Shown here in pieces: positions 1,203 through 58,950 of a DNA stretch of 64,000 nucleotides. Under the pieces are notes generated by a model, which was given only the letters and a program-made list of their open reading frames with translations, was not told where the DNA came from and ran no database searches. Each line of letters opens with the position of its first letter. Within the stretch, counting starts at the first letter, position 1. The translations under genes were made by a program, and so were the position numbers. The DNA is from Minisyncoccia bacterium (GTDB taxonomy: Bacteria > Patescibacteriota > Minisyncoccia > Phycocordibacterales > DATDWN01): assembly GCA_049296855.1 (NCBI GenBank), contig JBAQTF010000012.1, positions 1,939-65,938 of the forward strand, written 5' to 3'.

Positions 1203-2848
1203 TAATTGACTATCCAATAACTCAGACAAGCTTTATTTGTAACTGGATTATTGCTCGATTTTATAGTGAAACTTGTACCGGATGTTCTGGCGTTTATAAC
1301 ATAATTTCGTCCTGTGCCTGTATTGCAAGTAATACCAAGTCTTGTGCCAAGAGATGAGTCTTCCATAATAAATATCTGACTATTAGCTGTTACTGCAGTC
1401 GTGTTAACTACTAGAGTACTACCTCCTGTCGGCATAGCAACACTACCAGCTGGAGCAGAGCCACAAGTAGAAGGCGTTGTAGTAGAATTACAATTTGAAA
1501 CTGTACCTAAGTTTGTGATATTTAACAGTCCTTTCACTGTAGTTGTAGCATTTGTCCGTCCAATGTTAATTGATGTTGCTGTTGTTGAACCAAAAGAAAG
1601 AAGTCCTGCAGAATCTGTATCAAAGCCTAATCCATTCGCTAGAACATTTATGAAATTTCCGAAGATGTCACCATTTACATGAAGAGTTGCTGTGGGCGTA
1701 CTTGTTGCGATTCCAACCTTACTATTTATTATCATGTTTTGGCCAGAACGACCGAATGTCATAGTTGTTGCATTCATTGTGCCAAAATTTAGTATTCCAC
1801 TTGTCACAGAATCAAACAGTGATCCAACTGGCATAAAGAAATTTCCAGAAGTAAGCATAGTATCTGAACCGTCGTCAGAAAGAAGAGCATTACCTATAGT
1901 TGTACTTGCTGTAAACTTTACCAGTCTGTTAATTATTCCTGAACCTGTTATTGATTGATTACTACTTGTATAACTTATTATTACTATTCCTGATCCACCT
2001 GATCCACCAGTATTAGTGTTGCCACCTCCACCTCCACCTCCAGTATTTGGATCTCCATTACCAGGAGTTGAACCACTGTCACTTCCATTTCCTCCACCTC
2101 CTATTCCACCTGAACCGGGTGTAATAGCATCTGTCGCGCCACCCCCTCCGCCAGCATAAGTTACATTAGTTCCAGAAATTGAATTTGCGAGGCCAGCTCC
2201 TCCGTCACTTCCATCTGTATGTCCACCAGCCAGATCTTCTCCTGCTGTAGAAGCACCTCCACCCCCCGCACCTCCATTTCCTGACCCACCCCATATTTGA
2301 TTACCCCCTCTATTTCCTTGTCCTCCATTTCCTGACCCACCATTTGAATCATCTCCAAGCCCAGCCGCGCCACCACCAGAACCACCATCTGCGCCAGTAG
2401 CTGTCGTTGTAGAAAAACTTGAGCCACCTCCTCCACCACCTGTAGAAGTAATAGTACTAAATATTGAATCACCCCCATTAGTTCCTTTACTTGTATATAC
2501 TGTTGCACCACCTCCACCACTGCCAACTGTTACAGAATACGACTGACTTGTAATACTAAAATTAGAATCATATTGATAACCACCCGCACCACCTCCACCA
2601 CCATTATATTGATTAGTTGTACCTCCTCCACCACCACCTCCACCAGCTACAACAAGAGCTTGAACAGTACCCCCACCAGTACCAGTGCAATCTAAAGTTC
2701 CACTGGTTGTAAAAGTGTGAATTGTATTTCCACCCGATTGGATAATAGTTCCTCCAGTACAATCTGATGAGAATGCAAAAACAGTTAAAGGAGAGGCTGT
2801 CAAAGTGATTGCTAAGAATAATGATAAGAATGTTACGATTTTTTTCAT
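1202..2848 (-). CDS. Glycine-rich secreted protein (signal peptide, long Gly/Ser/Thr low-complexity region, structured C-terminal domain)
   Basis: N-terminal signal peptide MKKIVTFLSLFLAITLTASPLTVFA. Poly-Gly tracts include GGGGGGGG and GSGNGGQGNRGGN. The C-terminal roughly 200 aa are non-repetitive. No family recognised. Confidence 0.6.
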   Translation of the reverse strand: MKKIVTFLSLFLAITLTASPLTVFAFSSDCTGGTIIQSGGNTIHTFTTSGTLDCTGTGGGTVQALVVAGGGGGGGGTTNQYNGGGGGAGGYQYDSNFSITSQSYSVTVGSGGGGATVYTSKGTNGGDSIFSTITSTGGGGGGSSFSTTTATGADGGSGGGAAGLGDDSNGGSGNGGQGNRGGNQIWGGSGNGGAGGGGASTAGEDLAGGHTDGSDGGAGLANSISGTNVTYAGGGGGATDAITPGSGGIGGGGNGSDSGSTPGNGDPNTGGGGGGGNTNTGGSGGSGIVIISYTSSNQSITGSGIINRLVKFTASTTIGNALLSDDGSDTMLTSGNFFMPVGSLFDSVTSGILNFGTMNATTMTFGRSGQNMIINSKVGIATSTPTATLHVNGDIFGNFINVLANGLGFDTDSAGLLSFGSTTATSINIGRTNATTTVKGLLNITNLGTVSNCNSTTTPSTCGSAPAGSVAMPTGGSTLVVNTTAVTANSQIFIMEDSSLGTRLGITCNTGTGRNYVINARTSGTSFTIKSSNNPVTNKACLSYWIVN

Positions 2849-12350: not shown

Positions 12351-13049
12351 CTACTCTTCCGGGAAGGGGTAAAGTCCGACGCTTTGCATCTCCTCGACGC
12401 ACCGCGACATGAAGTCGCGATAGTAGTCGAAGTATGGCTTACCCATCTCCTTGGCTTTCGGGAGGCGCAACATGTCCTCCCACTCAAGGTTGAACCAGAT
12501 CGCGTCGTAACACGACTGGATATTTCGGAACGTCGTTTGCGGATGTTTCCTACCGAGGTATTTCGGGATGCATGCCGGAATGTTGGGTCGGTGTTGTCCA
12601 CCCCGAATGAGGTTGAGTGCTCCCATGTTCGACAATCGATCTGCATCCTTGAGGGTCACTGTGACAGGGTTGTCCGCGTCACTGTTGCGCATTGAATGCT
12701 CCATCAATGCTTCACGCATGAACATGAGCTCGTCGTTTCTGAACTCCCCAACAGGCAGTAGCCCAAAGTATCGGTCCAACACTTCGCTTGTTTCACTGCC
12801 GAAGTGACGGTCGGTCGAGTGCATGAGTCCAACGACCCAGGTCATCTCGCCGACTCGCGGGGTTTCCGCGATGAGTGCGCTGGTCTGAGCGACCCGAAGG
12901 TCGTGGTCCCAGCCGTGCCCCATGGTTGTCTTTCCTGACGCGACGATGTCCTCGTGAGTCTTCTTCACCGCATCGTATAGAGCTTTGTATTTCGCTCTCA
13001 TTACCACGAATGTGTTGTACAGATACTGCTTTTTAGTCTCTGTTGCCAT
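12351..13049 (-). CDS. HD-domain protein (predicted metal-dependent phosphohydrolase), encoded in a GC-rich island
   Basis: H...HD...H...D pattern (GHGWDHDLRV, GLMHSTDRH, LKDADRL). Local GC is about 55-60% against about 35% in flanking genes. Purine-rich Shine-Dalgarno sequence AAAGGGGGG upstream. Confidence 0.7.
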   Translation of the reverse strand: MATETKKQYLYNTFVVMRAKYKALYDAVKKTHEDIVASGKTTMGHGWDHDLRVAQTSALIAETPRVGEMTWVVGLMHSTDRHFGSETSEVLDRYFGLLPVGEFRNDELMFMREALMEHSMRNSDADNPVTVTLKDADRLSNMGALNLIRGGQHRPNIPACIPKYLGRKHPQTTFRNIQSCYDAIWFNLEWEDMLRLPKAKEMGKPYFDYYRDFMSRCVEEMQSVGLYPFPEE

Positions 13050-32533: not shown

Positions 32534-34807
32534 ATGAATAAAAAATCTCATTTCTCGTTTTTAAATATAATAGGAAAAACAGCAGTTTTTGTCTTAATTT
32601 TCCTCTACATTTTTAATGTTACAGTTGTCTTTGCTAACGGAGATTCTCATTCTGAGAGAGTTCACGATGAATCTTCATATGAGAGTGAACCAAATCATGA
32701 TAATCATGATGAACACTCAAATCCATGCGGTGGGGAAGAAAATGGTCACACAAATACAGCGCCTGTCATAACTCTTTTAGGAAGTAATCCTGTAACAATA
32801 ACTGTCGGAGCTATCTACACTGATCTAGGTGCAACAGCACAAGATACTGAAGATGGAGATATTACGGCAAACATTACTGCGACTAGTACAGTCAACACTA
32901 TGATTGTTGGGATTTACTCGATAACTTACAATGTTACTGATTCAGGAAATCTTTCTGCAACACCAGTTGTAAGAACAGTAAATGTGATTTTATCCATTCC
33001 TAGTATTAACAATCCTCCAGTCATAACTTTGGTTGGGAGTACTCCTATGATTTTTAATATCGGAGCTTCTTTTATTGATCCAGGGGCAACAGCTATAGAT
33101 ATTGAAGATGGAAATATTACGGCAAACATAACTTCAACGAGTACGGTTAATACACTTGCCGTTGGTACTTATTCAATCGAGTACGGTGTTACAGATTCAG
33201 GAGGTCTTAGAGCTACAACGACAAGAGCAGTGATTGTCAACCCTATTCCAGAATGTGCCTTTCCACAAATAAACTCTTTTTTGGCTACAAGTACGACAGT
33301 TGGACAAACATTTAGTTATACACTCACTGCGACGACTAGTTTTGCAACGACAACCTCAATCGTTTTCAATGTTGCGACAACTAGTCTTCCATCCGGACTT
33401 TCCTTTTCTACAACAACTAATGTAATAACCGGCACCTCAACACAAGTTGGAGTTTTCAATATCAACATAACAGTTACTAACAGCTGTGGTCAAGACTCAA
33501 GGACATTTGTTCTAACAGTTAACGATGTTGTTCCAGATGGTGATGGAGGAAATGGTGGTGGAAATCCTTCTCCAAGTTCTAATATTGCCGTTACGAAAAC
33601 TGTAGATAAACCTACAGCAAGTGTAGGGGATACTGTTACATACAGTATTTCTGTAGTTAATAATGGTCCAGATAATGCCACCGGGGTATCTATAAAGGAC
33701 ATTTTACCAAACAGTTTGGATTTTGTTTCAGCATCTTCCTCGATTGGAACATATAGTACAACAACTAGTACTTGGACTGTTGGTGATTTAGCCAATGGAT
33801 CATCAACAGCGTTGATACTCGTATCGACTATACACGCAGGTTTTGAAGGACAAAAAATAACTAACACTGCAACTGCATCTTCGACACAATCAGACACTGA
33901 CTCATCTAACAACATTACAAATGCAGATGTTAATGTTAACCCTGTAATTTCTACAGCTTGTACTTCAAACTGTGGGGGAGGATCATCTGGAGGAAATGGT
34001 GGTGGAGGAGGCGGAGGAGGCAACGGACCAATCGTTGGTTCATATGGAATTGTAAATAGTTCTAACGGAAGCGGTTCACAAATAGGGGCTTCTACTGTAA
34101 AAGGTTGTTACTATTTATTTGATTATCTTCGTGCTGATTTTAAAAACAATCCTATTGAAGTAACAAAGCTACAAGTTTTCTTACGAGACTTGGAAGGTTT
34201 CAAGGACATAAAAATTACTGGAGTGTATGACGAACAAACTATTGTTGCAGTGGATGCTTTTCAGGCGAGATATGCCTCTGATATTTTGACTCCATGGGGT
34301 CATGATAAACCTACTGGTTACACATATATTCTTACAAAGAAAAAAGTAAACGAAATATATTGCAAGACTGCTTTCCCCATAACACCTCTACAGCAAACGG
34401 AAATAGATAACTATAGAGATTTCTTACTTGGACTAAAAGACGCTGGTATTGTTCTTCCTAAAACAAACAGTCAAGAAATTGATAAAACTAATTCTACAGG
34501 ACCAGTTCCGGTTGAGCTAACTCCCGAGATTCCAAATAGTGTAGTAGGTAAAAAATCGACGACAAATACTGAACAGGGAACTCTTTCTAGTATTTCAACC
34601 ACAACTAAAAATATTATATCTAATTTTACTGCAAATGTGATTGGAGCAGGAAAGAACATTGCAGGTTTTTATAGTAACACAGGACTTACAGGTTGGATTA
34701 ATCTCCTTCTTATCGCTACTACTTTAGTTGTTACTTATCTTTGGTATCGAGAGAGGAGAAGAAATAAGAAATTAGAAATTATTAATAAAGAAATTGATTT
34801 AAGTTAA
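32534..34807 (+). CDS. Cell-surface protein: signal/TM segment, two tandem Ig-like (DUF5011-type) repeats, DUF11-type domain, Gly-rich linker, C-terminal TM anchor
   Basis: Two roughly 90-aa tandem repeats begin (N)APVITLLGSNPVTITVGA...DGDITANITATSTVNT and (N)PPVITLVGSTPMIFNIGA...DGNITANITSTSTVNT. DUF11-like TKTVDKPTASVGDTVTYSISVVNNGPDNATGV. C-terminal hydrophobic helix followed by RERRRNKK. Confidence 0.65.
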   Translation: MNKKSHFSFLNIIGKTAVFVLIFLYIFNVTVVFANGDSHSERVHDESSYESEPNHDNHDEHSNPCGGEENGHTNTAPVITLLGSNPVTITVGAIYTDLGATAQDTEDGDITANITATSTVNTMIVGIYSITYNVTDSGNLSATPVVRTVNVILSIPSINNPPVITLVGSTPMIFNIGASFIDPGATAIDIEDGNITANITSTSTVNTLAVGTYSIEYGVTDSGGLRATTTRAVIVNPIPECAFPQINSFLATSTTVGQTFSYTLTATTSFATTTSIVFNVATTSLPSGLSFSTTTNVITGTSTQVGVFNINITVTNSCGQDSRTFVLTVNDVVPDGDGGNGGGNPSPSSNIAVTKTVDKPTASVGDTVTYSISVVNNGPDNATGVSIKDILPNSLDFVSASSSIGTYSTTTSTWTVGDLANGSSTALILVSTIHAGFEGQKITNTATASSTQSDTDSSNNITNADVNVNPVISTACTSNCGGGSSGGNGGGGGGGGNGPIVGSYGIVNSSNGSGSQIGASTVKGCYYLFDYLRADFKNNPIEVTKLQVFLRDLEGFKDIKITGVYDEQTIVAVDAFQARYASDILTPWGHDKPTGYTYILTKKKVNEIYCKTAFPITPLQQTEIDNYRDFLLGLKDAGIVLPKTNSQEIDKTNSTGPVPVELTPEIPNSVVGKKSTTNTEQGTLSSISTTTKNIISNFTANVIGAGKNIAGFYSNTGLTGWINLLLIATTLVVTYLWYRERRRNKKLEIINKEIDLS

Positions 34808-37434: not shown

Positions 37435-37656
37435 TCATGACGCCTTCCTCTCCTGCGTTTTGTGACGAATGATGAGGCGCGCAACCTCAGTCACCATTTC
37501 TGACTTCTCGGGTTCTTTGATGAACCCCGCGGATTCGACCGCTGCATTCAAGATCTTGTTGTATCTTGGAGCAAAGAGTCGACCCTCAGTGGTCAGGACT
37601 TTTTCACATTCCCTGATCACTTTCAAAGCGATTTCACCAGCGTTCAAAATAATCAC
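37435..37656 (-). CDS. Small hypothetical protein (about 70 aa) in GC-island 2
   Basis: GC-rich ORF with an AGGAGGTG Shine-Dalgarno sequence. The track start at 37656 is a GTG that overlaps that sequence. A TTG at 37647 gives 8-nt spacing. No family recognised. Confidence 0.45.
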   Translation of the reverse strand: MIILNAGEIALKVIRECEKVLTTEGRLFAPRYNKILNAAVESAGFIKEPEKSEMVTEVARLIIRHKTQERKAS

Positions 37657-37759: not shown

Positions 37760-37966
37760 CTAGGTAACTTCTTGTTCAGGGCCCTTGCGAGAAGCATTTC
37801 TCCTCGCGTTTGCTGCCCGAGAGAGGGTTGACATCGCCTGGTATACGTTTTCGTTTCTCCCAGCGTATCTCTTTACTACCTCGAGCATGAGGTTCCTATA
37901 GTCTCTGTCTGGGTACCTTTGACGCAAGTCTCGGAGCTCGTTCAACATCCGGTCTGTAATGACCAT
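37760..37966 (-). CDS. Small hypothetical protein (68 aa) in GC-island 2
   Basis: ATG start preceded by AAGGAGGG at 6-nt spacing. GC-rich. No family recognised. Arg-rich C-terminus. Confidence 0.5.
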   Translation of the reverse strand: MVITDRMLNELRDLRQRYPDRDYRNLMLEVVKRYAGRNENVYQAMSTLSRAANARRNASRKGPEQEVT

Positions 37967-40649: not shown

Positions 40650-40687
40650 TTTAGCAAATATCTATGATGATAAGAAGTTTTTTGGAT

Positions 40688-40716
40688 TTGACACGTTAGG
40701 TATTCGTTGTTAGTTT
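40688..40716 (+). promoter_or_regulatory. Promoter TTGACA-N17-TAGTTT for the island-3 gene
   Basis: Read directly from the sequence. It is followed by the Shine-Dalgarno sequence AAGGAGG at 40726-40732. Confidence 0.45.
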
Positions 40717-40739
40717 GTGTTGAGAAAAGGAGGTTGTAC

Positions 40740-41201
40740 ATGGGACATCCGAATCTGTCGGACGGGTTGAATAGATTGATTGATGCCACAGATATACCTG
40801 GAGCTACTTTGGAACTTCGAGAAGTCAAGGTCGGCCAGATCATCAAGGTCGTTTTCGGTGACGAGGGAAAGAAAACTTCTCTCACAATTCGCATCGACAA
40901 GCCAGCTGGTAAAGGGTGGGGTGAGGATTCAGCACTCGGGACCATTCTCGCAGTTGAACTTCAACCAGACAAAGTGGAGTCATTTCGGAAAGTTGATCTT
41001 CCTATTCCACCTATTGGTGAGAAATGTGCGCTTTTCTGTGCTTGTACACGAAACCCTGGGGCTCCATTTGGTATGACGATGTTACACGTTCATCATCTTA
41101 CCAAAGGGAGGCACTTCAGTTGGACAACCCGTCCAAATACCAACAATGAAATCGGGTGGCTTTTTCCAGAAACAGTCTCTGGCTGGTCAGTGCATGGCTA
41201 G
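40740..41201 (+). CDS. Hypothetical protein (153 aa) in GC-island 3
   Basis: ATG at 40740 with a perfect AAGGAGG Shine-Dalgarno sequence at 7-nt spacing. GC about 48-50%. No family recognised (contains CALFCAC...HVHH). Confidence 0.55.
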   Translation: MGHPNLSDGLNRLIDATDIPGATLELREVKVGQIIKVVFGDEGKKTSLTIRIDKPAGKGWGEDSALGTILAVELQPDKVESFRKVDLPIPPIGEKCALFCACTRNPGAPFGMTMLHVHHLTKGRHFSWTTRPNTNNEIGWLFPETVSGWSVHG

Positions 41202-46375: not shown

Positions 46376-46819
46376 ATGAAAATAATATTACTTAAAGATA
46401 TTGCTAAGGTTGGACGAAAGTATGATATAAAAGATGTCGCTGAAGGTTTCGCTTTAAACATGCTTATCCCACGTGGAGTAGCACAGATTGCGACACCGGG
46501 AGCCATAAAGAAAGTCGAGGAGATGAAATCTCGTGACATGACAGATAGAAAAATCCAGGAGGAGCTTTTGTTGAAAAATCTTGAGGTCATAAAAAATCTG
46601 AAAATAAATCTCAAAGAAAAAGCTAGTGATAAGGGTCACTTGTTTGCCGGAATTACAAAAGAAATGCTTGTTTCGGAAATTTTAAAGTCAACCAGACTGA
46701 ATCTTGATCCAGAATCAATTAAGTTAGCTAAGCCAATAAAAGAAGTTGGGGAACATTTCATTGCTGTTGAAGCCTTAGGTAAAAAAGCAGAATTTACTCT
46801 CAAAATCGAAGCAGAATAA
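46376..46819 (+). CDS. rplI: 50S ribosomal protein L9
   Basis: MKIILLKDIAKVGRKYDIKDVAEGFALNMLIPRGVA is the bL9 N-domain. Confidence 0.9.
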   Translation: MKIILLKDIAKVGRKYDIKDVAEGFALNMLIPRGVAQIATPGAIKKVEEMKSRDMTDRKIQEELLLKNLEVIKNLKINLKEKASDKGHLFAGITKEMLVSEILKSTRLNLDPESIKLAKPIKEVGEHFIAVEALGKKAEFTLKIEAE

Positions 46820-46820
46820 A

Positions 46821-46866
46821 ACACCCAACACAAACTCTTCCCGGAGGTTTGTTTTGTGTTGGGTGT
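46821..46866 (-). terminator. Hairpin terminator (14-bp stem) at the 3' end of the island-4 gene
   Basis: ACACCCAACACAAA ... TTTGTGTTGGGTGT. On the minus strand it is followed by TTTTATT. It overlaps the rplI 3' flank. Confidence 0.6.
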
Positions 46867-47066
46867 CACGTTCTTGCTTTTAGGTGAGATGGGGTTGAGA
46901 GTTCTCGAAGTCTTCGACATTTCTCACAACCCTTGTCCGTCGGTTCACCCGGGCAAGGTTTTCCGTGAGGACAGTTGTGTTTTATGGCATTTGTCCCGTG
47001 GCTTTTTGTGTTGCGGACTTGAGATCCGCAACCCAAACATGTGACGTAGGTCTCAGGTCTTCCCAT
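46866..47066 (-). CDS. Small Cys-rich zinc-ribbon-like protein (66 aa) in GC-island 4
   Basis: MGRPETYVTCLGCGS...HNCPHGKPC...KGCEKCRR carries two CxxC pairs plus C/H residues. The ATG is preceded by AAGGAG at 7-nt spacing. GC-rich. Confidence 0.5.
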   Translation of the reverse strand: MGRPETYVTCLGCGSQVRNTKSHGTNAIKHNCPHGKPCPGEPTDKGCEKCRRLRELSTPSHLKART

Positions 47067-47090
47067 GGCTGATCTCCTTTTCTCAAAACA

Positions 47091-47112
47091 AAATAGCACT
47101 GAAGTGCTATTT
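47091..47112 (-). terminator. Terminator hairpin downstream of rpmA
   Basis: AAATAGCAC-TGAA-GTGCTATTT. On the minus strand it is followed by a T-rich tract. Confidence 0.6.
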
Positions 47113-47137
47113 TGTAAAATCATGATTCCAATTATTT

Positions 47138-47410
47138 CTAAACTACATTTATTACTTTTTTGATGCCTACTTTATTATCGAAATGCATTTTTCTTTTTAT
47201 TCCAAATTTTACTGTTCCGGAAGTCAGTGCAAATAGAGTATGATCTTTTCCCATAGATACGTTTTTCCCAGCGAGTGTCTCAGTGCCTCTTTGTCGTATA
47301 AGGATTGAGCCAGCCTGCGCCAAATCTCCCTCGGTAATTTTAACCCCGAGGTATTTTGGATTTGAATCCCGACCGTTTTTAGTTGTTCCTGCGGACTTTT
47401 TATGTGCCAT
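47138..47410 (-). CDS. rpmA: 50S ribosomal protein L27
   Basis: [24 protein letters not shown] is the bL27 signature. Confidence 0.9.
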
Positions 47411-53051: not shown

Positions 53052-53069
53052 CCACCCGGTTAAGGGTGG
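53052..53069. terminator. Hairpin CCACCC-GGTTAA-GGGTGG shared by the permease operon (+) and the island-5 gene (-)
   Basis: A-run upstream and T-rich downstream on the plus strand. T-run on the minus strand. It overlaps the last codons of the island-5 ORF. Confidence 0.6.
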
Positions 53070-53335
53070 CCTTTGTCTGATGGTTTTTTAAACCACTTGC
53101 TATTGGTGCGAAGATCTTCCACGACCGCCGAGTCCATTCCGAGCAGTTCGTAGGCGGTTCGTGCTTCTGCGTCCCCGATCTCTTTTTTTGTCCAACAGTA
53201 GTCGATTGCTCCTAGAACACAAGCTTGAGCCGATCTGAGCCGACCTTCTTCAAGGAAGATGTCTACACAGAGTTTACCTTCCTCGTTGAGGTATACCTCG
53301 GCCAGCTGTTTAATGGTCGCTTTATCTGCATTCAT
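53060..53335 (-). CDS. Hypothetical protein (91 aa) in GC-island 5
   Basis: ATG preceded by GGAGGTG. GC about 50%. No family recognised (LCVDIFLEEGRLRSAQACVLGAIDYCW). Confidence 0.5.
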   Translation of the reverse strand: MNADKATIKQLAEVYLNEEGKLCVDIFLEEGRLRSAQACVLGAIDYCWTKKEIGDAEARTAYELLGMDSAVVEDLRTNSKWFKKPSDKGHP

Positions 53336-53424: not shown

Positions 53425-54333
53425 ATGAACCAAGAGAGTATACAGCATACAATCATACTTTTTTATAAATACGTAGAAATAGATAACCCAGAAAAGCTGA
53501 GAGATAGACAGCGTTCTCTGTGTGAAAAACTCGGACTAAAAGGACGGGTGATTGTTGCAAAAGAGGGAATTAACGCGACACTCGAAGGGACGACAAAGAA
53601 CATAAATGAATATCTAAAAGAATATCTTTCCGATTTGCGATTTTCAGATACTCACATAAAGAAAAGTACTGGTGATGGAGATTCATTCCCAAGACTTTCT
53701 GTCAAAGTGCGAAAAGAAATAGTCACTCTTGGTTTGGAAGATGATATCAATCCAAATGAAATCACAGGAAAACATCTCAAACCTGAGGAGTTGAAACAGT
53801 GGTATAAGTCCGGCAAAGATTTTGTCATCGTTGATATGAGAAATGATTATGAGTTCAAAGTCGGTCGCTTTAAAAATTCAATAATGCCGAGATTGCAGAA
53901 TTTTAGAGATGTCCCAAAAGCTCTAGGAGACGTTGAAAAACTTCGTGACAAAACCGTCCTAACTGTTTGTACGGGCGGAGTACGTTGCGAAAAAGCTTCA
54001 GGACTTCTTGTTCGAGAAGGATTTAAAGATGTTTACCAGCTCGACGGTGGTATTGTCAGCTATATGGAAAAATTTCCAGCACAAGAGTTCCAAGGTTCTC
54101 TCTACGTTTTTGACAAAAGAATCATCATGGATTTTGATTCTGTTAATAATCTTGGAGATAAACACGTCGTAATAGGGAAGTGTGACAAGTGTGGATTATC
54201 GAACGAACGATATGTAAACTGCAAACGACCAGAGTGTAACAAACACTTCATCTGTTGCGAATCTTGTTCTGAACCCGACGGTCGTTCCTTCTGCTCCATT
54301 GAGTGTCGCGAAAAAATGATGATAACTTCATAA
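53425..54333 (+). CDS. trhO: tRNA uridine(34) hydroxylase / rhodanese-domain protein TrhO (YceA, UPF0176)
   Basis: UPF0176 N-domain, rhodanese domain with CTGGVRCEKAS, and a Cys-rich C-terminal tail. Confidence 0.75.
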   Translation: MNQESIQHTIILFYKYVEIDNPEKLRDRQRSLCEKLGLKGRVIVAKEGINATLEGTTKNINEYLKEYLSDLRFSDTHIKKSTGDGDSFPRLSVKVRKEIVTLGLEDDINPNEITGKHLKPEELKQWYKSGKDFVIVDMRNDYEFKVGRFKNSIMPRLQNFRDVPKALGDVEKLRDKTVLTVCTGGVRCEKASGLLVREGFKDVYQLDGGIVSYMEKFPAQEFQGSLYVFDKRIIMDFDSVNNLGDKHVVIGKCDKCGLSNERYVNCKRPECNKHFICCESCSEPDGRSFCSIECREKMMITS

Positions 54334-58804: not shown

Positions 58805-58854
58805 TTTTTGTTAATTCCGGAAAGGCTATATTTTAATACTCGCTTTTTATTTTC

Positions 58855-58950
58855 ATCTGTTGCGAATCCTGTTCTGAATCAGATGGTAAATCTTTTTGTG
58901 GTGTTGAGTGTAAAGAAAAAATTGAAAAACTTGTCTCTGTGGATAACTAA
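58855..58950 (+). pseudogene. Remnant of a second trhO-like gene (C-terminal about 31 codons only)
   Basis: It translates to ICCESCSESDGKSFCGVECKEKIEKLVSVDN*, against the TrhO tail ICCESCSEPDGRSFCSIECREKMMITS* at 54250-54333. Nucleotide identity is high over the first roughly 45 nt. No upstream ORF or start. Confidence 0.6.

What the first reader, a model, noticed from the sequence alone, without database searches (positions are those of the whole stretch)
46821..47112. GC-island 4: Cys-rich zinc-ribbon mini-protein inserted between ribosomal protein genes rplI and rpmA
A 66-aa ORF carries CxxC...C..H..C...CxxC and an AAGGAG ribosome-binding site. It sits in a GC-rich patch flanked by two hairpin terminators, one shared with rplI and one with rpmA.

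Small zinc-ribbon proteins in such positions are typical of phage or mobile regulatory cargo, for example anti-sigma, anti-defence or Ogr-like factors. The other ORFs on both strands of this patch look like GC-driven artefacts.
Basis: seen in the sequence. Interest (0 to 1): 0.6.

Follow-up and report, generated by a model that had tools for sequence, protein, structure and literature searches.

The report
Unannotated cysteine-rich mini-gene in insertion hotspot
A tiny, unannotated gene for a cysteine-rich, probably metal-binding protein sits as a self-contained foreign-looking unit between two ribosomal protein genes of an ultra-small (CPR) bacterium; related genomes have either nothing or a different small gene at this spot, and what the protein does is unknown.

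Summary
A 66-codon minus-strand ORF (47066→46866) with an AAGGAG ribosome-binding site lies in a ~50% GC patch of a 36% GC Patescibacteria genome. Two hairpins bracket it between convergent rplI and rpmA.

It is probably a real gene, though annotators left it uncalled:
- Six Cys with two CxxC in this frame occurred in 2.5e-5 of shuffles.
- Native genes here almost never carry a Shine-Dalgarno motif.
- A sigma-70-like promoter and a terminator bracket the ORF exactly.

No family matches it: Pfam, PHROGs, PADLOC, NCBIfam, PDB, two very large protein collections, viral contigs and phage records. One weak candidate relative exists, a 72-aa GC-rich, SD-led mini-gene in another CPR genome. All six Cys align to it, and it is under purifying selection (dN/dS 0.22).

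Relatives have a single bidirectional terminator at this site, or unrelated GC-rich cassettes. It is therefore an accessory insertion in a hotspot, and one of six such cassettes in the window.

Phage origin, or an Ogr-like or anti-sigma role, has no support. Function remains unknown; a Zn-binding mini-protein is the best guess.

The parts
46866..47066 (-). 66-codon ORF (c66) for a Cys6His4 mini-protein; stop TGA at 46866-46868, start ATG at 47064-47066
   Evidence: The Cys/CxxC pattern has p = 2.5e-5 in shuffles. GC is 0.50, against 0.444 expected from its amino acids with native codon usage.
47074..47079 (-). Shine-Dalgarno AAGGAG, 7 nt upstream of the ATG. It lies within the 13-mer TTGAGAAAAGGAG (47074-47086), which is also found before the c153 cassette.
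   Evidence: SD motifs are almost absent from native genes.
47090..47118 (-). Putative sigma-70-type promoter: TTTACA (47118-47113), 17 nt, then TG-n-TATTTT (47095-47090). It overlaps the rpmA terminator hairpin. Inferred, not shown.
   Evidence: 9 of 12 matches with an extended -10 TG. It is 72% identical over 61 nt to the promoter/leader of the cassette at 40685-40745.
46821..46866 (.). Hairpin with 14-bp perfect outer arms. A T-run follows on the minus strand, so it is the terminator of c66. It abuts the rplI stop codon, so it is shared with rplI.
47088..47115 (-). Hairpin with 13-bp arms followed by TTTTGTTTTG on the minus strand: the intrinsic terminator of rpmA
47005..47037 (.). Internal 13-bp hairpin lying over the codons of the first CxxC knuckle. 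Its significance is unknown.
46376..46819 (+). rplI (ribosomal protein L9), left flank
   Evidence: Ribosomal_L9_N, E = 9e-18.
47138..47410 (-). rpmA (ribosomal protein L27), right flank
   Evidence: Ribosomal_L27, E = 4e-32.
40685..41201 (+). Sister cassette c153: a related promoter/leader (40685-40745) followed by an unrelated 153-aa GC-rich ORFan (40740-41201)

Best explanation
The patch is a self-contained, horizontally acquired single-gene expression cassette. It was inserted into the terminator region between the convergent rplI and rpmA genes of a Patescibacteria (Minisyncoccia/Paceibacteria, Zambryskibacteria-like) genome.

How it is expressed (inferred):
- Transcription starts from its own sigma-70-like promoter, which overlaps the rpmA terminator.
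- A leader of about 17 nt carries a strong Shine-Dalgarno site, a signal that native genes of this organism do not use.
- The 66-codon ORF fills the transcript.
- A hairpin terminator shared with rplI ends it.

The product (inferred): a 7-kDa, basic (net charge about +7), cytoplasmic protein with six Cys and four His and no hydrophobic core. It most likely folds around one or two metal ions, probably Zn. The N- and C-terminal CxxC knuckles would form a zinc-ribbon-like site, and the central H-x-C-x-H-xxx-C could form a second site. It probably acts by binding another macromolecule.

Shown: the anatomy, the accessory and insertional status, the non-random Cys pattern, and the atypical SD, GC content and codon usage.

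Inferred: expression, metal binding, and any downstream role.
For: Anatomy. The promoter-like site, SD, ATG, ORF and terminator are contiguous, and the ORF fills the GC-rich stretch exactly.

Coding signals.
- At least 6 Cys plus at least 2 CxxC in this frame occurred in 2.5e-5 of dinucleotide shuffles. The other five frames have 0-4 Cys and no CxxC.
- Only 2 of 52 native ORFs of at least 150 aa carry even a 4-mer SD-like motif, whereas 6 of 6 GC-rich cassettes carry a strong one.
- The same contrast appears in other CPR loci.

Accessory status.
- The synteny S41-rplI><rpmA-Ada-like is conserved.
- The spacer is a single A-tract/stem/T-tract terminator of 34-85 nt in L001, L007, L008, L010, L011 and L012, and it is short and AT-rich in most metagenome relatives.
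- In L002, L004, L005 and L006 the spacer holds different ~50% GC inserts.

Foreign signature. GC is 0.50 against 0.36 for the genome. About 60% of that excess comes from amino-acid composition; the rest comes from codon usage that is mildly atypical (z = -2.4).

Same architecture elsewhere. Five other cassettes in the window share it. One of them (232 aa, HD-like) has 22 homologues, including one in a 54% GC genome where it is not an island.

Candidate homologue P0026/P0027 (72 aa).
- All six Cys of c66 align, with matching YVxCLxC and CPxGxxCP motifs.
- A composition-preserving shuffle test gives p = 5e-5.
- It is GC-rich (0.49-0.53 against a 0.38 background) and the only SD-led gene among 16 called genes at its locus.
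- The two variants have dN/dS 0.22 and keep all 10 Cys.
Against: - No statistically secure homologue exists. The P0026 match has E = 0.03-0.12 in a database of only ~350 kb, and the next unrelated hit has E = 0.17.
- Nothing was found in 5.8 billion protein clusters or 1.84 billion representatives, apart from one spurious repeat protein in which the Cys are not conserved. These searches see only called proteins, and c66 itself is not called.
- Annotators left the spacer empty.
- The open frame alone is unremarkable (p = 0.11).
- AlphaFold gives no confident fold.
- All available copies of the locus are 100% identical, so there is no polymorphism test for this ORF.
- The promoter is only a 9-of-12 consensus match and overlaps a terminator hairpin.
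- There are no expression data.
Confidence: 0.6

Rival explanations
1. The patch is non-coding. It could be a decayed remnant of a former cassette, or a small structured RNA transcribed between the two terminators. On this view the ORF is fortuitous, kept open by the low stop-codon frequency of GC-rich DNA.
For: - The frame stays open in 11% of shuffles.
- The interior folds slightly better than shuffles on both strands (z = -1.8 and -2.2), and a perfect 13-bp hairpin lies at 47005-47037.
- The same site in L002 holds a 192-nt GC-rich insert with hairpins but no promoter, SD or long ORF.
- No gene is called here, and there is no secure homologue.
Against: - The Cys/CxxC pattern in exactly the SD-led frame has p = 2.5e-5.
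- A strong SD is present in a genome that otherwise lacks SD motifs.
- No Rfam family matches at the gathering threshold or at E <= 10, beyond microRNA and snoRNA noise.
- The fold z-scores are weak, similar on both strands, and close to one of the two cassette coding sequences folded for comparison (z = -1.3 and -0.3).
Confidence: 0.22
2. One reading: it is phage-derived or mobile-element regulatory cargo, such as an Ogr/Delta-like activator, a zf-HC2 anti-sigma factor or an anti-defence protein.
For: - It is accessory, GC-atypical and carries its own promoter and terminator, which is moron-like architecture.
- Small Cys4 proteins of about 70 aa include Ogr/Delta (established knowledge).
Against: - No Pfam hit, and Ogr_Delta and zf-HC2 are both in Pfam-A.
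- No PHROG hit better than E = 0.14 and no PADLOC hit.
- No relative in IMG/VR contigs or in 50,697 phage records.
- Three other proteins tested (cassettes c232 and c153, and the candidate homologue P0026) have no viral relatives; c91 was also scanned without a hit.
- I noticed no prophage, integrase or transposase gene among the neighbouring genes that were identified; this was not a systematic scan.
Confidence: 0.1
3. It is a divergent zinc-ribbon ribosomal protein (like L31, L32, L33, L36 or S14), placed among ribosomal protein genes.
For: - It lies between rplI and rpmA.
- Its size and CxxC...CxxC pattern resemble L31 (resemblance recalled from memory, not tested beyond Pfam).
Against: - No ribosomal Pfam or NCBIfam family matches.
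- The gene is absent at this site in nearly all relatives.
- Its GC content, codon usage and SD are unlike the native ribosomal protein genes beside it.
Confidence: 0.02
4. The real gene is the antisense + strand ORF (46856-47044, 62 aa, GTG start), translated from rplI read-through transcripts.
For: - GGAGGT lies 8 nt upstream of its GTG.
- The left hairpin lacks a T-run on the + strand, so rplI read-through is conceivable.
Against: - The SD-like motif and the start codon are buried in the hairpin.
- It has no promoter.
- It has 4 Cys and no CxxC, and no family matches it.
- It is simply the complement of a Cys- and Gly-rich frame.
Confidence: 0.03

Closest known systems
Small zinc-ribbon / rubredoxin-like Cys4 mini-proteins (the generic structural class)
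   Same: About 65 aa with no hydrophobic core. It has an N-terminal CxxCG and a C-terminal CxxC knuckle about 33 residues apart, and CP-x-G motifs typical of metal knuckles.
   Different: No zinc-ribbon, rubredoxin or other Pfam or NCBIfam profile matches. It has an extra central H-x-C-x-H-xxx-C cluster. The fold could not be predicted, and the best PDB hits are non-significant: a Rieske ferredoxin at E = 0.35 and PsaC at E = 0.38.
Phage 'morons' (autonomous promoter-gene-terminator units inserted between conserved genes, often of atypical GC)
   Same: It has its own promoter, its own terminator and atypical base composition. It sits between two conserved genes and is absent from relatives.
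   Different: The host locus is a cellular housekeeping region, not a prophage. There is no viral relative of the cargo.
PeSL cassettes of T4-type phages (promoter-early plus stem-loop modules flanking shuffled ORFs)
   Same: Stem-loops and promoter modules flank interchangeable small ORFs. L004 and L005 share the terminator and the promoter/SD but carry unrelated cargo. c66 and c153 share a promoter/leader.
   Different: This is a comparison from memory. No shared PeSL sequence was tested, these are cellular genomes, and only a handful of cases were seen.
P0026/P0027, an uncharacterised 72-aa Cys-rich protein of another groundwater CPR bacterium (JGI Ga0265292_1000216; Hainich contigs)
   Same: Similar length, with MG/ME at the start. 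All six Cys of c66 align. It is GC-rich in an AT-rich genome, is SD-led, has its own promoter, and lies 1.2 kb from rpmA in the same S41-rplI-rpmA neighbourhood.
   Different: Only 29-34% identity, and significance is borderline. It has four additional Cys and is acidic rather than basic. It has no known function or family either.
Ogr/Delta zinc-finger transcription activators of P2/P4 phages
   Same: About 70 aa with four or more Cys in CxxC-type pairs.
   Different: No Ogr_Delta Pfam match, no phage context, and different Cys spacing.

Membership tests
Zinc-ribbon / rubredoxin-like metal-binding mini-proteins | Two Cys knuckles (CxxC ... CxxC) placed to chelate one metal ion | tested here: met
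   C10xxC13 and C47xxC50 are read directly from the sequence. The pattern is non-random.
Zinc-ribbon / rubredoxin-like metal-binding mini-proteins | Match to a curated zinc-ribbon or rubredoxin sequence profile | tested here: not met
   No families at E <= 1 in Pfam-A or NCBIfam.
Zinc-ribbon / rubredoxin-like metal-binding mini-proteins | Beta-hairpin knuckle fold and actual metal binding | tested here: inconclusive
   AlphaFold pLDDT is 56 (single sequence) and 46 (3-sequence alignment), with only short strands predicted at residues 6-9 and 16-19. Metal binding is not testable with these tools.
Ogr/Delta phage zinc-finger activators | Match to the Ogr_Delta profile, and a P2/P4-type phage context | tested here: not met
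   No Pfam hit. No PHROG hit better than E = 0.14. I noticed no phage gene among the neighbouring genes that were identified; not scanned systematically.
zf-HC2 anti-sigma factors | H-x3-C-x2-C motif matching the zf-HC2 profile, usually next to an ECF sigma gene | tested here: not met
   No Pfam hit. The neighbours are rplI, rpmA, an S41 peptidase and an Ada-like membrane protein.
Known anti-phage defence components | Match to a PADLOC model | tested here: not met
   No families at E <= 1.
Zinc-ribbon ribosomal proteins (L31, L32, L33, L36, S14) | Profile match and universal presence among close relatives | tested here: not met
   No ribosomal family matches. The gene is absent at this site in most relatives.
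Rfam structured RNAs | Covariance-model match at the gathering score | tested here: not met
   Only four tRNAs were found elsewhere in the window. The local E-value scan gave only microRNA and snoRNA noise of 11-18 bits.
Horizontally acquired genomic islet / moron-like cassette | Patchy distribution at a conserved syntenic site | tested here: met
   The site is empty in L001, L007, L008, L010-L012 and most of L031-L050, and holds different inserts in L002, L004, L005 and L006.
Horizontally acquired genomic islet / moron-like cassette | Composition and expression signals unlike the host's, plus its own promoter and terminator | tested here: met
   GC is 0.50 against 0.36, codon usage z = -2.4, and the SD contrasts with SD-less native genes. 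Promoter activity itself was not tested.
Horizontally acquired genomic islet / moron-like cassette | Identified donor or mobility machinery | tested here: not met
   No homologue in any collection. I noticed no integrase or transposase among the neighbouring genes identified, and found no target-site duplication beyond a chance-level 8-mer.

The most novel reading that the evidence does not exclude
These Patescibacteria may carry a population of integrase-free 'expression-slot' cassettes. Conserved modules (terminator hairpin, sigma-70 promoter, strong SD, and a 3' terminator) would sit at intergenic hotspots between housekeeping genes, and their GC-rich ORFan cargo would be exchanged by recombination within the modules. 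That would be a cellular analogue of phage PeSL or moron shuffling. The cassettes are also the only SD-led genes in otherwise SD-less genomes, which would give them a separate translation-initiation channel. c66 would be one cargo of this system, and the first member (with P0026) of a new family of Cys-rich mini-proteins.
Probability: 0.2. Interest if true: 0.7.

Novelty: new member of a known kind. Interest (0 to 1): 0.4.

Why it matters
- It is a concrete case of a plausible small protein gene that standard annotation missed in a CPR genome. Because it is uncalled, protein-database searches cannot see it or relatives that are likewise uncalled.
- The context matters more than the single ORF. 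In these streamlined, AT-rich genomes that lack SD motifs, a set of GC-rich, SD-led ORFan cassettes, each with its own promoter, occupies intergenic hotspots, and the cargo differs between related genomes.
- If that pattern is general, it bears on how ultra-small symbionts acquire and express accessory functions, and on whether SD-led initiation marks foreign or specially regulated genes in them.
- The function of the Cys-rich protein itself is unknown, which limits its immediate importance.

Tried and rejected
RNA families and folding.
- Rfam at the gathering threshold on the whole window, and an E-value scan of the patch, found nothing relevant.
- ARAGORN found no tRNA or tmRNA here.
- Folding both strands gave z of about -5 for the whole patch, but this comes from the two terminators. 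The interior gives only -1.8 and -2.2.

Protein families and homologues of c66.
- Pfam, PHROGs, PADLOC and NCBIfam gave no family.
- PDB sequence search gave only non-significant Rieske and PsaC hits. I looked in the other frames for a second Rieske box and found none.
- The search for homologous proteins found nothing.
- The exhaustive phmmer search gave one hit, P0001. I rejected it as a repeat protein in which the Cys are not aligned.
- Scans of viral and metagenome contigs with c66 found nothing.
- Phage tblastn and blastn found nothing. Plasmid tblastn gave only non-significant hits.

Structure. AlphaFold was run alone and with the 3-sequence alignment. Both models have low confidence, so no fold search was attempted.

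Polymorphism test. All recovered copies of the locus are identical.

Relationships among inserts.
- c66 against the L006 61-aa Cys-rich ORF at the same site is not significant.
- An all-against-all comparison of the cassette proteins showed them all unrelated.
- A search for flanking direct repeats found only a chance-level 8-mer.

Native promoters. I tried to show that native genes are leaderless from the positions of -10 boxes. The distribution has no sharp peak, so I claim only 'SD-less', not 'leaderless'.

Literature. I found no paper on Cys-rich small proteins or SD usage in Patescibacteria. HGT among Patescibacteria in general is documented, and 61.6% of genes in acquired regions have no assigned function (PMC12455944).

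Full report
WHAT IS THERE

The window comes from a Patescibacteria (CPR) metagenome-assembled genome, GCA_049297715.1, contig JBAQUU010000002.1, labelled Minisyncoccia. Its closest L9 relatives are Zambryskibacteria/Paceibacteria-like MAGs. Overall GC is 36%.

rplI (46376-46819, +) and rpmA (47138-47410, -) converge on a 318-nt spacer whose core has 47-52% GC.

On the minus strand the spacer reads, in order:
- The rpmA terminator hairpin, 47115-47088, followed by TTTTGTTTTG.
- A sigma-70-like promoter match that overlaps the hairpin: TTTACA, 17 nt, TG-n-TATTTT (47118-47090).
- The leader TTGAGAAAAGGAG (47086-47074).
- ATG at 47066.
- 66 codons.
- TGA at 46868-46866.
- Immediately afterwards, a 14-bp hairpin (46866-46821) followed by a T-run. 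This hairpin abuts the rplI stop codon.

The protein is MGRPETYVTCLGCGSQVRNTKSHGTNAIKHNCPHGKPCPGEPTDKGCEKCRRLRELSTPSHLKART. It has six Cys (two CxxC pairs plus C32 and C38), four His, a net charge of about +7 and no hydrophobic stretch.

IS IT MORE THAN CHANCE?

The open frame alone is not.
- With the SD-ATG fixed, 11% of dinucleotide shuffles remain open for 65 codons.
- 2.7% of shuffles of the spacer contain some SD-ATG ORF of at least 66 aa.

Two other features are far from chance.
- The Cys pattern. Translating shuffles in frame gives a mean of 1.2 Cys. At least 6 Cys together with at least 2 CxxC occurred in 2.5e-5 of 40,000 shuffles. The other five real frames have 0-4 Cys and no CxxC.
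- The SD. This genome hardly uses Shine-Dalgarno sites. Of 52 native ORFs of at least 150 aa, only 2 have even a 4-mer SD-like motif at -20 to -4.
- In the whole window, the SD-led ORFs of at least 60 aa with GC of at least 0.48 are exactly six GC-rich cassettes, c66 among them, plus the antisense ORF discussed below.

THE ISLAND IS AN INSERTION IN A HOTSPOT

The synteny S41 peptidase - rplI >< rpmA - Ada-like protein is conserved in 19 GTDB genomes and 26 metagenome contigs.

- The empty state is one bidirectional terminator: an A-tract, a GC stem and a T-tract, in a 34-85 nt AT-rich spacer. It is seen in L001, L007, L008, L010, L011 and L012. In more distant relatives the two genes even overlap.
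- Most metagenome relatives also have short, AT-rich spacers.
- Four close relatives carry other ~50% GC inserts at this site:
  - L002: 192 nt, with hairpins only.
  - L004: 565 nt, with a 125-aa ORF.
  - L005: 517 nt, with a 116-aa ORF.
  - L006: 314 nt, with a 61-aa ORF that has four Cys.
- The L004 and L005 ORFs each lie on the rpmA strand behind a TTGACA...TATAAT-type promoter and a strong SD; the L006 ORF has the strong SD and a TTTACA -35 box, but I found no convincing -10 box.
- None of these proteins is related to c66 or to one another.

Empty is therefore ancestral, and the site has been filled several times independently.

ONE OF A CLASS

The window contains six such units. Each has ~50% GC (48-54% over the ORF) and consists of a sigma-70-like promoter, a strong SD, an ORF and a terminator:

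| Cassette | Coordinates | Strand | Length |
|---|---|---|---|
| c232 | 12351-13049 | - | 232 aa |
| c70 | 37435-37647 | - | 70 aa, TTG start |
| c68 | 37760-37966 | - | 68 aa |
| c153 | 40740-41201 | + | 153 aa |
| c66 | 46866-47066 | - | 66 aa |
| c91 | 53060-53335 | - | 91 aa |

- None has a Pfam, PHROG, PADLOC or NCBIfam family.
- Their codon usage departs from native usage, with z from -4 to -13. For c66 the departure is only -2.4.
- For c66, about 60% of the GC excess comes from amino-acid composition: expected GC with native codons is 0.444, observed is 0.503.
- c232 has 22 homologues, and NCBI names the window's own copy 'HD domain-containing protein'. One homologue sits in a 54% GC genome where it is not an island. 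This points to transfer from higher-GC Patescibacteria.
- c153 is an ORFan.
- Transfer among Patescibacteria is documented, and most genes in acquired regions there have no assigned function (PMC12455944).

SHARED MODULES, DIFFERENT CARGO

- The c66 promoter and leader (47061-47121, -) is 72% identical over 61 nt to that of c153 (40685-40745, +), in register with the start codons. It is the longest inverted repeat in the window. The exact 13-mer TTGAGAAAAGGAG occurs only at these two places.
- Between L004 and L005, the flanking genes are 70-97% identical and the terminator and promoter/SD modules about 65-70%. Identity collapses to the 25-50% of a random alignment exactly between the start and stop codons, and the proteins are unrelated.
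- The window and L006 share only a 12-nt element in the -35 region at the orthologous position.

This looks like cargo exchange inside a conserved expression slot. I have only these few cases, so I treat it as a lead rather than a finding.

HOMOLOGUES OF C66

None is secure.
- The word-indexed search of 5.8 billion clusters found nothing.
- The exhaustive phmmer search of 1.84 billion representatives gave one hit. It is a 3285-aa repeat protein that aligns none of the Cys, so I rejected it.
- Viral, metagenome, phage and plasmid searches were negative or non-significant.

These protein databases contain only called genes. c66 itself is not in them, so homologues that are likewise uncalled would be invisible.

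I therefore ran tblastn against the syntenic loci I had fetched. It found one candidate: L053 4456-4674, which is protein P0026 (72 aa).
- The E-value is 0.03 by tblastn and 0.05-0.12 in the reciprocal searches of a ~350 kb database.
- A composition-preserving shuffle test of the pair gives p = 5e-5.
- All six c66 Cys align, within YVxCLxC, CPxGxxCP and CxxC motifs, and the alignment runs from the start codons to near the C-termini.
- P0026 is itself a GC-rich mini-gene (0.49-0.53 against 0.38). It has a TTTACA/TAATAT promoter and a GAGGAGG SD, and it is the only SD-led gene among the 16 called at its locus. It lies 1.2 kb from rpmA.
- Its variant P0027 differs at 12 residues, none of them Cys. 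dN/dS between the two is 0.22.

P0026 is therefore a genuine protein under selection. Its homology to c66 is plausible, and I estimate about 55%, but it is not proven.

WHAT IT PROBABLY DOES

The step from sequence to 'metal-binding' is inference from the ligand pattern and the absence of a hydrophobic core.
- No profile matches, and the best PDB hits are non-significant: a Rieske ferredoxin at E = 0.35 and PsaC at E = 0.38.
- The AlphaFold models are unusable.
- The positive charge of c66 suggests nucleic-acid binding, but P0026 is acidic, so I do not lean on this.

My committed reading is an independently expressed accessory mini-protein that folds around Zn and binds a macromolecular partner.

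I estimate about 0.6-0.7 that it is a real protein-coding gene. The combined reading (real gene, metal-binding product and horizontal acquisition) I score at 0.6, and the metal-binding step is likely if the gene is real.

The leading rival is a non-coding remnant or small RNA, at about 0.2. A phage-regulator reading (Ogr-like, anti-sigma or anti-defence) has no positive evidence. A ribosomal-protein reading is excluded by the patchy distribution.

The + strand ORF (46856-47044) has a GGAGGT 8 nt before its GTG start. That motif lies in the terminator loop, and the ORF has no promoter and no Cys motif, so I regard it as the mirror image of the real frame.

VERDICT

It is a new, unclassified member of a known kind: small Cys-rich metal-binding ORFans carried on horizontally acquired islets. 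Interest is moderate. The more notable result is contextual: SD-led, GC-rich cassettes at intergenic hotspots in genomes that otherwise lack SD motifs.

Noticed in passing
window 12351-13049(-), 37435-37647(-), 37760-37966(-), 40740-41201(+), 46866-47066(-), 53060-53335(-): Six GC-rich (~50% against 36%) single-gene units, each with a sigma-70-like promoter, a strong SD and a terminator. None has a known protein family, and the proteins are unrelated to one another.
   Followed up: partly
whole window; also L020, L027, L029, L056: Native genes almost never have a Shine-Dalgarno motif (2 of 52 ORFs of at least 150 aa), whereas all GC-rich cassettes do. At the L056 locus the Cys-rich mini-gene P0026 is the only one of 16 called genes with an SD. 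The 16S anti-SD could not be checked because there is no rRNA in the window.
   Followed up: partly
L004 2732-3298 versus L005 4444-4962: At the same rplI/rpmA site in two related genomes, the terminator and the promoter/SD modules are homologous (65-70% identical), but the ORFs between the start and stop codons (125 aa and 116 aa) are unrelated. This looks like a cargo swap inside a conserved expression slot.
   Followed up: partly
window 40685-40745(+) and 47061-47121(-): The promoter/leader regions of two different cassettes (c153 and c66) are 72% identical over 61 nt, in register with their ATGGGA starts. This is the longest inverted repeat in the window.
   Followed up: partly
L006 3673-3909(+) and L008 3670-3912(+): A second hotspot, between the S41 peptidase gene and rplI, holds a GC-rich 78-80 aa ORF whose translations look similar in the two genomes (similarity judged by eye, not scored). 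L010 and L014 have other GC-rich inserts there.
   Followed up: no
L002 4445-4636: The rplI/rpmA spacer holds a 192-nt, 50% GC insert with strong hairpins but no promoter, SD or long ORF. It may be a decayed cassette or a structured RNA.
   Followed up: no
L003 4454-5123: The rpmA - Ada-like gene pair is inverted relative to all the other relatives, so this junction is also a rearrangement point.
   Followed up: no
window 46856-47044(+): An antisense 62-aa ORF with a GTG start has GGAGGT 8 nt upstream, inside the loop of the left terminator hairpin. That hairpin has no T-run on the + strand, so rplI transcripts may read through antisense to c66.
   Followed up: partly
window 1982-2646(-): A GC-rich stretch made of imperfect direct repeats (CCACCTCC-type, period about 84 nt) lies inside a 548-aa minus-strand ORF. 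It probably encodes a Gly-rich repeat protein and is not a cassette of the kind above.
   Followed up: no
window 32762-32962 / 33017-33217 and 54247-54317 / 58852-58922: A 201-nt internal tandem duplication (71% identical), and a 71-nt, 76% identical repeat between two loci 4.6 kb apart. Neither was examined further.
   Followed up: no
L056 5733-5897 and 6001-6219: Upstream of P0026 is a 54-aa ORF that looks like the N-terminal membrane part of the Ada-like protein found next to rpmA in the window. The P0026 cassette may have replaced the C-terminal part of that gene. This is a visual impression only.
   Followed up: no
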